From assembly GCA_026713825.1 (NCBI GenBank), contig JAPONS010000051.1, positions 17,885-81,884 of the forward strand: a stretch of 64,000 nucleotides of DNA, in the 5' to 3' direction. Made by a program: the position numbers and the translations under genes. Positions within the stretch are counted from its first letter, which is position 1. Every line of letters begins with the position of its first letter. Source of the DNA: Chloroflexota bacterium (GTDB lineage: Bacteria; Chloroflexota; Dehalococcoidia; Lucifugimonadales; UBA1127). Shown one piece after another: positions 49,482-49,654 of this stretch. The notes beneath the pieces are model-generated. The model was not told the origin of the DNA and searched no databases. It worked only from the letters and a program-made list of their open reading frames with translations.

Positions 49482-49511
49482 AAAAAACCCGCCGGCGTCT
49501 GCTGGGCGGGG
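49482..49511 (-). terminator. Intrinsic terminator in the DAHP-synthase leader (attenuator)
   Basis: The minus strand reads CCCCGCC-CAGCAGACGCC-GGCGGG followed by TTTTTTG. This is a 6-bp GC stem plus a U6 tract, about 65 nt upstream of ATG 49414. Confidence 0.6.
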
Positions 49512-49542
49512 AAAGTGTCAACTGCTTACGCTGTCCTGATTG

Positions 49543-49617
49543 TCACACAGCAATTCCCCGACCGACATATGTGCCGGTAAAGAAATAACCATAGCGATAG
49601 GACAGGGTAATGCTCAT
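49543..49617 (-). CDS. Tyr/Phe-rich leader peptide (24 aa) upstream of DAHP synthase
   Basis: The minus-strand ORF ATG AGC ATT ... GTG TGA encodes MSITLSYRYGYFFTGTYVGRGIAV (4 Tyr and 2 Phe). It lies between a promoter-like element and the terminator. Confidence 0.5.
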   Translation of the reverse strand: MSITLSYRYGYFFTGTYVGRGIAV

Positions 49618-49626
49618 ACGCAGTCT

Positions 49627-49654
49627 ATCCTACAGGAACATTCAAGCTTGTCAA
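49627..49654 (-). promoter_or_regulatory. Sigma70-type promoter candidate for the leader and DAHP synthase
   Basis: On the minus strand: TTGACA (49654-49649), 16-nt spacer, TAGGAT (49632-49627). The leader ATG lies only 9 nt downstream of the -10 hexamer, so the 5' UTR would be very short or absent. Confidence 0.5.

What the first reader, a model, noticed from the sequence alone, without database searches (positions are those of the whole stretch)
49482..49654. Aromatic-codon-rich leader peptide with terminator and anti-terminator pairings upstream of DAHP synthase (ribosome-mediated attenuation candidate)
Reading the minus strand between the coiled-coil gene and the DAHP synthase gene gives four elements in order.
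1. A promoter-like TTGACA, 16-nt spacer, TAGGAT.
2. Nine nt later, a 24-codon ORF encoding MSITLSYRYGYFFTGTYVGRGIAV. It has 4 Tyr and 2 Phe, and five of these fall within seven consecutive codons.
3. CGGGGAA, inside codons 20-22 of that ORF, is complementary to TTCCCCG (plus-strand 49507-49513). That segment overlaps the left arm of the next element.
4. A GC stem (CCCGCC/GGCGGG) followed by TTTTTT, about 65 nt before the aroG-type start codon.

This is the classical trp/phe/his-leader architecture: a ribosome stalled at hungry aromatic codons frees the anti-terminator. DAHP synthase is the first committed step of aromatic amino acid synthesis, so the logic fits.

I am not aware of a described Tyr/Phe leader controlling a class-I DAHP synthase in this kind of organism. 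The very short 5' UTR also implies near-leaderless translation of the leader.
Basis: partly seen in the sequence, partly recalled or inferred. Interest (0 to 1): 0.65.

Follow-up and report, generated by a model that had tools for sequence, protein, structure and literature searches.

The report
Tyr/Phe leader-peptide attenuator of DAHP synthase
A 24-codon mini-gene rich in tyrosine and phenylalanine codons, followed by a terminator hairpin and a competing anti-terminator, sits in front of the first gene of aromatic amino acid synthesis. It most likely works as a classical ribosome-sensing switch, a known mechanism seen here in a poorly studied group (SAR202-type Chloroflexota).

Summary
On the minus strand there is a TTGACA-16-TAGGAT promoter and, 9 nt later, an ATG opening a 24-codon ORF (MSITLSYRYGYFFTGTYVGRGIAV). 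A CCCGCC/GGCGGG+U6 terminator follows, 67 nt before a class-I DAHP synthase gene.

The ORF is the only one of 846 small ATG-ORFs in the window with at least 4 aromatic residues in 7 codons. Folding with a ribosome parked on codons 9-13 swaps the terminator for an anti-terminator. A free RNA, or a ribosome at codon 17 or at the stop codon, restores the terminator.

Eleven syntenic orthologues (71-92% identical enzyme) keep the promoter, the exact -35-to-ATG distance, the reading frame, the aromatic codons, the stop position and all three pairings. The big 1:2 hairpin covaries. More distant Chloroflexota have unrelated sequences with the same architecture.

The mechanism, however, is already known for DAHP synthase: aroR-aroF in Corynebacterium glutamicum, and a predicted uORF motif in Acholeplasma. 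It is therefore a new member of a known kind. It is absent from Rfam, and I found no description of it for Chloroflexota. The near-leaderless start is conserved. Nothing has been tested experimentally.

The parts
49649..49654 (-). -35 hexamer TTGACA of the leader promoter
   Evidence: TTGACAA is invariant in 11 syntenic orthologues.
49627..49632 (-). -10 hexamer TAGGAT (TA[G/C]NAT in orthologues), preceded by the invariant TGT
   Evidence: The distance from the -35 start to the ATG is exactly 37 nt in every orthologue.
49618..49626 (-). 9-nt spacer AGACTGCGT between the -10 hexamer and the leader ATG. It has no Shine-Dalgarno. The inferred transcript start is 0-4 nt before the ATG (near-leaderless).
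   Evidence: 9 nt in all 10 orthologues, and 5-12 nt in the distant loci with a recognisable promoter. The transcription start is inferred, not mapped.
49543..49617 (-). Leader ORF of 24 codons plus TGA: MSITLSYRYGYFFTGTYVGRGIAV
   Evidence: The frame is kept by in-frame indels (+9 and -12 nt). The stop position is kept as TGA, TAA or TAG. It is unique among 846 small ORFs of the window.
49579..49599 (-). Regulatory codon run, codons 7-13: TAT CGC TAT GGT TAT TTC TTT (Tyr-Arg-Tyr-Gly-Tyr-Phe-Phe)
   Evidence: Stalling at codons 9-13 switches the fold to the anti-terminator; stalling at codon 7 or 17 does not. Aromatic identity is conserved as a class (for example Phe12 to Tyr in L166, Tyr9 to Phe in L171).
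49524..49613 (-). Long imperfect 1:2 hairpin (anti-anti-terminator, possibly also a pause hairpin). Its 5' half is codons 2-15. Its 3' half is codons 17-24 plus 19 nt after the stop. The core pairs AUUUCUUUACCGGCA (49586-49572) with UGUCGGUCGGGGAAU (49567-49553).
   Evidence: It is present in the MFE and centroid structures. Together with the terminator it has 8 pairs with changes on both sides, and no shuffle in 500 reaches the observed covariation.
49555..49565 (-). Region 2: 5' strand of the anti-terminator, UCGGUCGGGGA (consensus UCGGC-C-GGGGA)
49503..49513 (-). Region 3: 3' strand of the anti-terminator, UUCCCCGCCCA (consensus UCCCC-C-GCCGA). It overlaps the whole 5' arm of the terminator.
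   Evidence: All 12 aligned sequences can form the 10-bp helix with one C.C mismatch. The edge pair varies among A-U, G-U, G-C and U-A.
49482..49510 (-). Intrinsic terminator (3:4): CCCGCC, loop CAGCAGACGCC, GGCGGG, then UUUUUU
   Evidence: -12.7 kcal/mol. It is conserved in all orthologues, where it is usually a stronger 7-bp stem, CCCGCCG/CGGCGGG.
48362..49414 (-). Regulated gene: class-I (AroF/G/H-type) DAHP synthase, 350 aa
   Evidence: Pfam DAHP_synth_1, E = 1e-80. NCBIfam TIGR00034 aroFGH, 456 bits, and PRK12755.

Best explanation
This is a classical ribosome-mediated transcription attenuator that couples expression of the DAHP synthase gene to the supply of charged tRNA-Tyr and tRNA-Phe.

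Inferred sequence of events:
1. Transcription starts 0-4 nt before the leader AUG.
2. A ribosome loads on this (near-)leaderless 5' end and translates the 24-codon leader while RNA polymerase transcribes ahead of it.
3. When Tyr-tRNA and Phe-tRNA are plentiful, the ribosome runs to the UGA. There it covers region 2 (UCGGUCGGGGA).
4. Region 3 (UUCCCCGCCCA) is then left to pair with region 4. The CCCGCC/GGCGGG+U6 terminator forms and transcription stops 67 nt before the gene.
5. When Tyr or Phe is scarce, the ribosome stalls on codons 9-13 (Tyr-Gly-Tyr-Phe-Phe). It covers region 1 and leaves region 2 free.
6. Region 2 pairs with region 3 as soon as region 3 is made. This sequesters the terminator 5' arm, and polymerase reads through into the DAHP synthase gene.
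7. If the leader is not translated at all, the long 1:2 hairpin forms. The terminator still forms, so the default state is off.

Shown here:
- the sequence elements and their positions;
- the in-silico structure switch;
- conservation of the elements, and covariation of the 1:2 hairpin.

Inferred, not shown:
- the transcription start;
- translation of the leader;
- termination at the U tract;
- the response to Tyr or Phe.
For: (1) Anatomy is exact. The ORF is a 1-in-846 outlier for aromatic clustering, and it sits directly upstream of a class-I DAHP synthase.

(2) Structure switch in the window.
- The unconstrained MFE is the 1:2 hairpin plus the terminator, with terminator probability 0.98.
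- Masking through codon 9 drops this to 0.05, and masking through codons 11-13 drops it to about 0.6. In each case the MFE is the anti-terminator.
- A ribosome at codon 17 or at the stop gives 0.98.

(3) Eleven syntenic orthologues were examined. Their gene order is rsmD, coaD, coiled-coil gene, leader, DAHP synthase, polA, and the enzyme is 71-92% identical.
- The promoter-leader-terminator block is the conserved island of an otherwise diverged intergenic region.
- The -35-to-ATG distance is invariant at 37 nt.
- ATG is invariant, indels are in frame, and the stop is kept as TGA, TAA or TAG.
- Aromatic codons are retained, while codons 3, 4, 8, 18 and 22 change freely.

(4) Pairing in the alignment.
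- The 1:2 hairpin plus terminator has 8 pairs with compensatory changes, and 18 cells against 6.1 expected. No shuffle in 500 reaches the observed covariation score. 78.6% of cells are paired, against 33-47% for slid partners.
- The consensus anti-terminator, UCGGC-C-GGGGA with UCCCC-C-GCCGA, can form in all 12 sequences.

(5) Independent recurrence. Sixteen more distant DAHP synthase loci were analysed (L001-L004, L022, L045, L049, L081, L082, L085, L117, L128, L136, L144, L146, L152), with two more (L174, L176) inspected later; most are Chloroflexota.
- Each has its own aromatic leader, for example MNTLNGFFYYFWF... and MKQFIYTYYYFRR.
- Each has a terminator and an anti-terminator of unrelated sequence.
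- In 21 of the 26 loci tested (these 16, the window and its 9 orthologues), sequestration of the terminator arm is stronger than in at least 96 of 100 dinucleotide shuffles.

(6) The same logic is experimentally established for aroR-aroF in C. glutamicum (PMC11802643, PMC4046766, PMC7356990).
Against: - There are no experimental data: no mapped 5' or 3' ends, no evidence of translation, and no response to Tyr or Phe.
- In the window itself the anti-terminator is the weakest of its clade. A C at 49504, where most relatives have G, breaks a pair in both the terminator and the anti-terminator.
- The window's arm-sequestration energy (-9.8 kcal/mol) is matched by 17 of 100 shuffles.
- At equilibrium the window's terminator probability falls only to about 0.6 for stalls at codons 11-13. 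The switch therefore relies on co-transcriptional kinetics.
- The anti-terminator core is invariant in the orthologues, so it has essentially no covariation support. The window-derived register scored no better than shuffles.
- In several distant loci (L003, L081, L085, L128, L136, L171, L172) the equilibrium calculation keeps the terminator whatever the mask. Only the kinetic measure supports a switch there.
- Variable sites in the ORF are not enriched at third codon positions (6, 12 and 12 for positions 1, 2 and 3). Translation is therefore inferred from frame, start and stop conservation, not from a coding signature.
- Leaderless translation in this lineage is assumed.
Confidence: 0.82

Rival explanations
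1. The switch is real but senses something other than tRNA charging. For example, a nascent-peptide arrest (TnaC-like) could be triggered by a free aromatic amino acid, acting through the conserved YFFTG...GRG peptide.
For: The peptide segment Y-F-F-T-G-T and G-R-G is nearly invariant at both the amino acid and the nucleotide level in the 82-92% clade. The motif FTG...G(R/E)G persists in the distant L001, L002, L081 and L176 leaders.
Against: - The same nucleotides are the paired cores of regions 1 and 2 (ACCGGC with GUCGGU, and UUUCUU with GGGGAA). RNA pairing therefore explains their conservation.
- Other leader types (L022, L045, L049, L117, L128) lack the motif but keep the aromatic run and the architecture.
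- A cluster of 5-7 codons of the pathway's end products is the signature of hungry-codon sensing.
- Induction by an excess of end product would be the wrong sign for a biosynthetic gene.
Confidence: 0.05
2. The small ORF encodes a functional 24-residue aromatic peptide or small protein. The hairpin plus U tract is simply its terminator, and the DAHP synthase gene is transcribed from elsewhere.
For: The ORF, its start and its stop are conserved across orthologues. The ORF has its own strong promoter.
Against: - Non-aromatic positions are freely substituted, and the length varies from 23 to 27 residues in close relatives and from 13 to 30 in distant ones.
- There is no third-position bias.
- No other promoter-like site lies between the terminator and the DAHP synthase ATG.
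- The upstream operon ends in its own conserved hairpin.
- The anti-terminator that overlaps the terminator arm recurs with unrelated sequences in 21 of 26 loci, which a plain terminator would not need.
- The element is always linked to DAHP synthase, even where the synteny differs (L001-L004, L176).
Confidence: 0.04
3. The leader RNA is a factor-dependent attenuator in which the ORF is incidental. Candidates are a T-box binding tRNA, a riboswitch, or a TRAP- or PyrR-like RNA-binding protein.
For: Terminator and anti-terminator alternatives are common to all of these mechanisms. Chloroflexota are known to use T-boxes (own knowledge).
Against: - No Rfam family, T-box included, matches at E <= 10 in 48000-51000, nor at the gathering threshold anywhere in the window.
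- There are no repeated protein-binding triplets.
- The ATG, the frame, the stop position and the aromatic codon class are conserved through indels and substitutions. A non-translated RNA would not need this.
Confidence: 0.03
4. The arrangement is a non-regulatory accident: a promoter, a chance ORF and a leaky terminator or insulator, with constitutive read-through.
For: In the window alone, the promoter match and the anti-terminator energy are not individually significant.
Against: - The ORF is a 1-in-846 outlier.
- The whole block is the conserved island of the intergenic region in 11 orthologues.
- The 1:2 hairpin shows compensatory changes.
- The architecture has been reinvented or retained with different sequences in many other loci.
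Confidence: 0.03

Closest known systems
aroR-aroF attenuator of Corynebacterium glutamicum (Neshat et al. 2014, as cited in PMC11802643, PMC4046766 and PMC7356990)
   Same: A short leader peptide with a Phe-Tyr-Phe run lies upstream of a DAHP synthase gene. Read-through rises when ribosomes stall at Phe or Tyr codons. It occurs in a bacterium where leaderless mRNAs, including the ilvBNC leader, are common.
   Different: - The phylum differs: Actinomycetota there, Chloroflexota-like here.
- The leader here has a longer aromatic run (5 of 7 codons, 6 in all) and a conserved FTG...GRG tail.
- Sequence homology between the two could not be tested, because no C. glutamicum sequence was available in the tools.
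- aroR is experimentally validated. This element is not.
pheL-pheA, trpL-trpE and hisL leaders of Enterobacteria (Rfam Phe_leader, Trp_leader, His_leader)
   Same: The four-region logic is the same: a 1:2 hairpin, a 2:3 anti-terminator and a 3:4 terminator with a U tract. The regulatory codons lie in region 1, and the stop codon is placed so that a terminating ribosome covers region 2.
   Different: - There is no sequence or structure match to any Rfam leader family.
- The target is the common-pathway entry enzyme, not a terminal-branch gene.
- In E. coli, DAHP synthase genes are controlled by the TyrR and TrpR repressors instead (PMC11802643).
- The codon run mixes Tyr and Phe.
- There is no Shine-Dalgarno, and the start is near-leaderless.
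uORFC-13-1 motif upstream of aroF in Acholeplasma (Brewer et al. 2021, PMC8632094)
   Same: It is a candidate uORF-based attenuator found exclusively upstream of the DAHP synthase gene, immediately before an intrinsic terminator, with Phe codons in the uORF.
   Different: That motif has an RBS and a U run coding for at least one Phe. It occurs in Mollicutes and is predicted only. The element here has no RBS, is dominated by Tyr codons, and belongs to a GC-rich Chloroflexota lineage.
Leaderless leader-peptide attenuator of ilvBNC in C. glutamicum (PMC11857589)
   Same: It uses a three-hairpin model in which the first hairpin also blocks initiation on a leaderless mRNA and acts as an anti-anti-terminator. 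This is analogous to the long 1:2 hairpin here, which begins 5 nt into the ORF.
   Different: It senses branched-chain amino acids and has a different target operon. The leaderless status here is inferred from promoter geometry only.

Membership tests
Classical ribosome-mediated transcription attenuator (leader-peptide type) | A short ORF upstream of a biosynthetic gene, with a cluster of codons for the pathway's end-product amino acid(s) | tested here: met
   The 24-codon ORF has 5 Tyr/Phe in codons 7-13 and lies upstream of DAHP synthase. It is a unique outlier among 846 small ORFs.
Classical ribosome-mediated transcription attenuator (leader-peptide type) | An intrinsic terminator (GC hairpin plus U tract) between the leader ORF and the structural gene | tested here: met
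   CCCGCC, 11-nt loop, GGCGGG, then U6 at 49510-49482, -12.7 kcal/mol. It is conserved in all 11 orthologues.
Classical ribosome-mediated transcription attenuator (leader-peptide type) | An anti-terminator pairing that is mutually exclusive with the terminator and is favoured when a ribosome stalls on the regulatory codons | tested here: met
   Constrained folding supports this. The consensus helix can form in all 12 sequences. In 21 of 26 loci the effect exceeds at least 96 of 100 shuffles. Caveats: the window itself is matched by 17 of 100 shuffles, and the core does not covary.
Classical ribosome-mediated transcription attenuator (leader-peptide type) | A 1:2 hairpin that contains the regulatory codons and holds region 2 when the leader is not occupied | tested here: met
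   It is present in the MFE and centroid structures. It has 8 pairs with compensatory changes, and no shuffle in 500 matches it.
Classical ribosome-mediated transcription attenuator (leader-peptide type) | The stop codon is placed so that a terminating ribosome covers region 2 | tested here: met
   The stop lies 8-10 nt after region 2 and 32 nt before the terminator. Terminator probability with a ribosome at the stop is 0.98. The stop position is conserved with three different stop codons.
Classical ribosome-mediated transcription attenuator (leader-peptide type) | The leader is translated, and the premature termination frequency responds to charged tRNA levels | not testable with these tools
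   This needs Term-seq or RACE, ribosome profiling, reporter fusions or in vitro coupled assays.
Rfam leader families (Phe_leader, Trp_leader, His_leader, Leu_leader, Thr_leader, leu/phe-leader) | A match to the family covariance model | tested here: not met
   No such family scores at E <= 10 in 48000-51000, and there are no gathering-threshold hits in the whole window. The element works like these leaders but is not a member of those families.
T-box leader | Specifier loop, T-box sequence and a match to Rfam T-box | tested here: not met
   No Rfam hit.
C. glutamicum aroR-aroF attenuator (as a homologous family) | Sequence or structure homology of the leader to aroR | not tested
   No aroR sequence was available in the tools. 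Only the functional analogy is documented.
Leaderless mRNA | Transcription start at, or within a few nt of, the start codon, and no Shine-Dalgarno | tested here: inconclusive
   The -10 hexamer ends 9 nt before the ATG in all 10 orthologues, and 5-12 nt before it in distant loci with a clear promoter. There is no purine-rich SD. The transcription start itself is not mapped.

The most novel reading that the evidence does not exclude
The element is the founding example of an undescribed family of aromatic leader-peptide attenuators of DAHP synthase, widespread in SAR202/Dehalococcoidia-type Chloroflexota and absent from Rfam. The family comes in several variants: (a) GC-rich YGYFFTG...GRG leaders with terminators, (b) AT-rich MKQFIYTYYYFRR leaders, and (c) a terminator-less ...RWFYICRRRA type that may sequester the SD. 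Many members are translated from (near-)leaderless transcripts. If real, this would be the first indication that this uncultured, ecologically dominant lineage relies on tight transcription-translation coupling and on 70S-type leaderless initiation for metabolic control.
Probability: 0.5. Interest if true: 0.45.

Novelty: new member of a known kind. Interest (0 to 1): 0.35.

Why it matters
If functional, the element shows how SAR202-type Chloroflexota set carbon flow into the shikimate pathway. These are abundant deep-ocean and sponge-associated bacteria with no genetic system. The control would be by sensing Tyr- and Phe-tRNA charging at the ribosome, not by a repressor as in E. coli.

It adds a third, phylogenetically distant lineage in which DAHP synthase is under leader-peptide attenuation, after Actinomycetota and Acholeplasma. 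That argues for recurrent evolution or ancient retention of this solution.

It implies coupled transcription-translation and probably leaderless initiation in this phylum.

It also supplies a compact, conserved RNA family that could be added to annotation resources and used as a Tyr/Phe-responsive part. It does not change the known principles of attenuation.

Tried and rejected
- Rfam, at the permissive E-value on 3 kb and at the gathering threshold on 64 kb, gave only noise: snaR-A, mir-619 and c4-a1b1. No tRNA was found.
- The generic terminator scan missed the hairpin because its loop is longer than 8 nt.
- The GTDB representative-genome and JGI metagenome scans with the enzyme returned nothing closer than 66% identity. 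A tblastn of the four flanking genes against those 160 loci found only one hit, polA downstream of the enzyme in L049. Close orthologues had to be reached through the protein database and exact-protein look-ups.
- Covariation of the anti-terminator in the register taken from the window's own fold was no better than shuffles. The consensus register pairs everywhere but is nearly invariant.
- The codon-position test for coding selection showed no third-position excess (6, 12, 12).
- The equilibrium terminator probability did not switch in several distant loci with very strong terminators. Only the co-transcriptional measure did.
- Covariance model R1, built from the close clade, found one copy in the window and only marginal hits at the L045 and L085 leaders. 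It did not find L001-L003, so it is too narrow to define the wider family.
- I considered that the terminator might belong to the upstream coiled-coil operon. I rejected this because that operon ends 280 nt earlier in its own conserved hairpin, and a promoter and the ORF intervene.
- I considered that polA might be the real target. I rejected this because polA has its own conserved TGTATAAT promoter.
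Full report
OBSERVATION

- -35 TTGACA at 49654-49649, a 16-nt spacer, and -10 TAGGAT at 49632-49627. This is the only sigma-70-like site found in 48300-50400.
- Nine nucleotides, AGACTGCGT.
- ATG at 49617, opening a 24-codon ORF that ends with TGA at 49545-49543. It encodes MSITLSYRYGYFFTGTYVGRGIAV.
- Five of its six aromatic residues lie in codons 7-13 (Tyr-Arg-Tyr-Gly-Tyr-Phe-Phe).
- CGGGGAA in codons 20-22 is complementary to UUCCCCG (49513-49507). That segment overlaps the 5' arm of a CCCGCC / 11-nt loop / GGCGGG hairpin (49510-49488).
- The hairpin is followed by UUUUUU (49487-49482).
- Sixty-seven nucleotides further on, the ATG at 49414 opens a 350-aa class-I DAHP synthase (Pfam DAHP_synth_1, E = 1e-80; NCBIfam aroFGH and PRK12755).

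The clustering is not a chance feature of the window. Of 846 ATG-started ORFs of 10-50 codons in all six frames, none except this one reaches 4 aromatic residues in any 7-codon window. The 156-nt leader folds 2.6 sd better than dinucleotide shuffles, and none of 200 shuffles does as well.

STRUCTURES IN THE WINDOW

The unconstrained minimum-energy fold has two parts.
- A long imperfect hairpin at 49613-49524. Its 5' half is codons 2-15. Its 3' half is codons 17-24 plus 19 nt beyond the stop.
- The terminator.

I mimicked a stalled ribosome by forbidding pairing from the 5' end to 12 nt past the A-site codon.
- With the ribosome on codon 9, 11, 12 or 13, the minimum-energy structure becomes an anti-terminator: UGU.GG.CGGGGAA pairs with UUCCCCG.CC.GCA. 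This takes up the whole 5' arm of the terminator.
- The probability of the terminator stem falls from 0.98 to 0.05 at codon 9, and to about 0.6 at codons 11-13.
- With the ribosome on codon 7, region 1 is still free to hold region 2, and the terminator remains (0.83).
- With the ribosome on codon 17 or on the stop codon, region 2 is covered, and the terminator returns (0.98).

This is the four-region logic of the trp, phe and his leaders.

RELATIVES

The enzyme's closest matches in GTDB representative genomes and JGI metagenomes are only 59-66% identical. They are labelled Dehalococcoidia.

An exact-protein look-up found the window's own enzyme in two metagenome assemblies. Their leader is identical except for one T-to-G change at the first U of the tract.

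The large protein collection gave closer homologues, at 92, 88-89, 82-86 and 70-72% identity. The 70-72% homologues are named 'Chloroflexi bacterium' and 'SAR202 cluster bacterium' by their sources. I fetched their contigs.

All share the window's gene order: rpoB, rsmD, coaD, coiled-coil gene, a gap of about 370 nt, DAHP synthase, polA. The window therefore very probably comes from a SAR202-related Chloroflexota bacterium.

CONSERVATION

In the alignment of the whole intergenic region, the promoter-leader-terminator block is a conserved island between poorly conserved flanks.
- TTGACAA, TGTA..AT and the ATG are invariant.
- The -35-to-ATG distance is exactly 37 nt in every orthologue.
- No Shine-Dalgarno precedes the ATG.
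- The only indels in the ORF are +9 and -12 nt.
- The stop stays in place while changing between TGA, TAA and TAG.
- Codons 3, 4, 8, 18 and 22 change amino acid freely.
- The aromatic positions stay aromatic, for example Phe12 to Tyr in L166 and Tyr9 to Phe in L171. The exceptions are Tyr9 in L170 and Tyr17 in L169, both replaced by Ser.

This is the pattern expected of a translated regulatory leader rather than of a functional peptide. There is no third-position excess of variable sites (6, 12, 12).

PAIRING ON THE ALIGNMENT

The 1:2 hairpin plus terminator:
- 78.6% of cells are paired, against 33-47% when partners are slid by 1-3 columns.
- 8 pairs carry changes on both sides.
- No shuffle in 500 reaches the observed covariation score.

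The anti-terminator:
- In the window-derived register it shows no covariation, because its G/C core is invariant.
- In the clade's consensus register, UCGGC-C-GGGGA pairs with UCCCC-C-GCCGA in all 12 sequences. The edge pair varies among A-U, G-U, G-C and U-A.

The window carries C at 49504 where most relatives have G. This removes one pair from both the terminator and the anti-terminator. The window's copy is therefore the weakest of its clade in both structures.

INDEPENDENT RECURRENCE

I scanned the 148 analysable DAHP synthase loci for small ORFs with at least 4 aromatic residues in 7 codons. This found 34. Fifteen also had a strict terminator, and a few more qualified under relaxed criteria.

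Several leaders share the motif GY(Y/F)..FTG...G(R/E)G with the window:
- L001: MMISSHRFYGYYWLFTGSSAAGRGLVPENR
- L002, L003 and L081
- L176: MNKTWWSFGYYYFFTGSDSAGEGLVPGID

Others are unrelated in sequence:
- L022: MNTLNGFFYYFWFTDARHREAAS
- L045: MNSRRAFGFYFWRVTPGG
- L049: MNKNYYTYYYFRLTESF
- L117, L144, L146 and L152: MK(K/Q)F(F/I)YTYYYFR(L/R)
- L128: MYYFWFYFYFTTRLPGVR

For each locus I measured how much free energy the terminator's 5' arm gains by pairing upstream, before the 3' arm exists, with a ribosome on an aromatic codon.
- In 21 of 26 loci, the observed value is reached by at most 4 of 100 dinucleotide shuffles of the intervening sequence.
- The helices have completely different sequences. 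Examples are AGAGUCUUUU with AAAAGGCUCU, CCGGGGGUU with AACCCCCGG, and GGGAGG with CCUCCC.

This is helix-level covariation between lineages.

Among the genome-derived loci, those carrying both the leader and the terminator are labelled Dehalococcoidia or SAR202. The exceptions are one Fibrobacteria MAG and one MAG labelled Paceibacterota. None of the cyanobacterial, planctomycete or spirochaete loci had both features.

MECHANISM

The best-supported explanation is ribosome-mediated transcription attenuation responding to Tyr-tRNA and Phe-tRNA. The window's leader has no Trp codon, although some relatives do.

The following steps are inferred.
- The transcript starts 0-4 nt before the AUG, judged from promoter geometry.
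- 70S-type initiation occurs on that end.
- The ribosome is coupled to RNA polymerase.
- Termination occurs at the U tract.

A further prediction follows. Without translation, the 1:2 hairpin forms and the terminator fires. This is the default-off behaviour described for the leaderless ilvBNC leader of C. glutamicum (PMC11857589).

polA, 59 nt downstream of the enzyme, has its own conserved TGTATAAT promoter. The upstream operon ends in its own covarying hairpin. The attenuator's dedicated target is therefore the DAHP synthase gene.

COMPARISON WITH WHAT IS KNOWN

The mechanism is textbook, and DAHP synthase is already a documented target.
- In C. glutamicum, the aroR leader (Phe-Tyr-Phe) attenuates the aroF operon, with read-through enhanced under Phe limitation (PMC11802643, PMC4046766, PMC3890552, PMC7356990).
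- In Acholeplasma, a uORF motif (uORFC-13-1) found only upstream of aroF, next to a terminator, has been predicted (PMC8632094).
- In E. coli, DAHP synthase genes are instead repressed by TyrR and TrpR.

The element matches no Rfam 15 family. Full-text searches combining attenuation or leader peptide with Chloroflexi found no description of it. A search pairing SAR202 with 'leaderless' returned one paper, which I did not open.

It is therefore a new member of a known kind. It works like the phe or trp leaders and like aroR. It is not a member of the Rfam leader families. Its homology to aroR is untested.

VERDICT

Interest is moderate to low (0.35): it is a clean, well-conserved example that extends classical attenuation, probably with leaderless leader translation, to an uncultured but ecologically important group.

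Noticed in passing
window 49740-49792 (minus strand): A long GC-rich hairpin sits directly after the TAG stop of the coiled-coil gene: GCGCC-UCC-CGGCGGGGCC, loop UCAUGGCUAC, GGCCCCGCCG-UAAC-GGCGC. It has no U tract. It is conserved in the syntenic orthologues with 4 compensatory pairs (91.6% of cells paired; no shuffle in 500 matches). Its only Rfam hit is noise (snaR-A, E = 0.62). It is probably the end-of-operon terminator or stabiliser that insulates the attenuator promoter.
   Followed up: partly
window 48303-48361 (minus strand): The 59-nt spacer between DAHP synthase and polA contains the motif CGCTGTATAATG (an extended -10), nearly invariant across the orthologues: identical in all but L171, which lacks the TGTATAAT core, and L172, which differs in the first bases. 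There is no obvious terminator after the enzyme gene. polA therefore has its own promoter, but it could also receive read-through from the attenuator-controlled transcript.
   Followed up: partly
L030, L040, L054, L059, L063 (about 150-330 nt upstream of the DAHP synthase start): A second type of aromatic leader occurs in other Dehalococcoidia MAGs. The ORF ends ...(N/T)Y(R/F)(W/T)(F/R)(Y/W)...RRRA*, for example NYRWFYICRRRA. It is followed by several mutually complementary GCGCG-containing segments and by CUCCGCGCG, which is complementary to the CGGAG Shine-Dalgarno of the enzyme gene. There is no U tract. This may be a translational (SD-sequestering) or Rho-dependent variant of the same control.
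   Followed up: no
L049, L082, L117, L144, L146, L152: AT-rich (SAR202-like, marine) loci carry very short leaders, MK(K/Q)F(F/I)YTYYYFR(L/R) or MNKNYYTYYYFRLTESF, with AAAAGGCUC...GAGCCUUUU terminators and matching anti-terminators. Some appear to have an SD rather than a leaderless start.
   Followed up: partly
L176:1201-3392 and its leader about 210 nt upstream: One leader (MNKTWWSFGYYYFFTGSDSAGEGLVPGID, with Trp-Trp as well as Tyr/Phe codons) precedes two tandem DAHP synthase genes. The second has the ferredoxin-like DAHP_snth_FXD domain (type I-beta). The -10 hexamer ends 7 nt before the ATG, so this leader may be truly leaderless.
   Followed up: partly
L171:1040-1065 compared with L172 and L173 (alignment A4, columns 49-72): L171 and L174 carry a 12-nt in-frame direct repeat inside the leader (TTTACCGGCACA followed by TTTACCGGCAGG). 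L172 and L173 have it only once. The 1:2 core is thus gained or lost by slippage while frame and regulation-relevant codons are kept.
   Followed up: no
window 49487 and 49504: Two micro-variations affect the terminator. The metagenome copy L161 has G instead of the first U of the tract, which extends the stem to CCCCGCC/GGCGGGG and shortens the tract to U5. The window population has C at 49504 where most relatives have G (A in L171-L173), weakening both the terminator and the anti-terminator.
   Followed up: partly
window 1-64000: There is no tRNA gene and no Rfam family at the gathering threshold anywhere in the 64-kb window. The first 2 kb have markedly lower GC (0.525 against about 0.62 elsewhere).
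   Followed up: no
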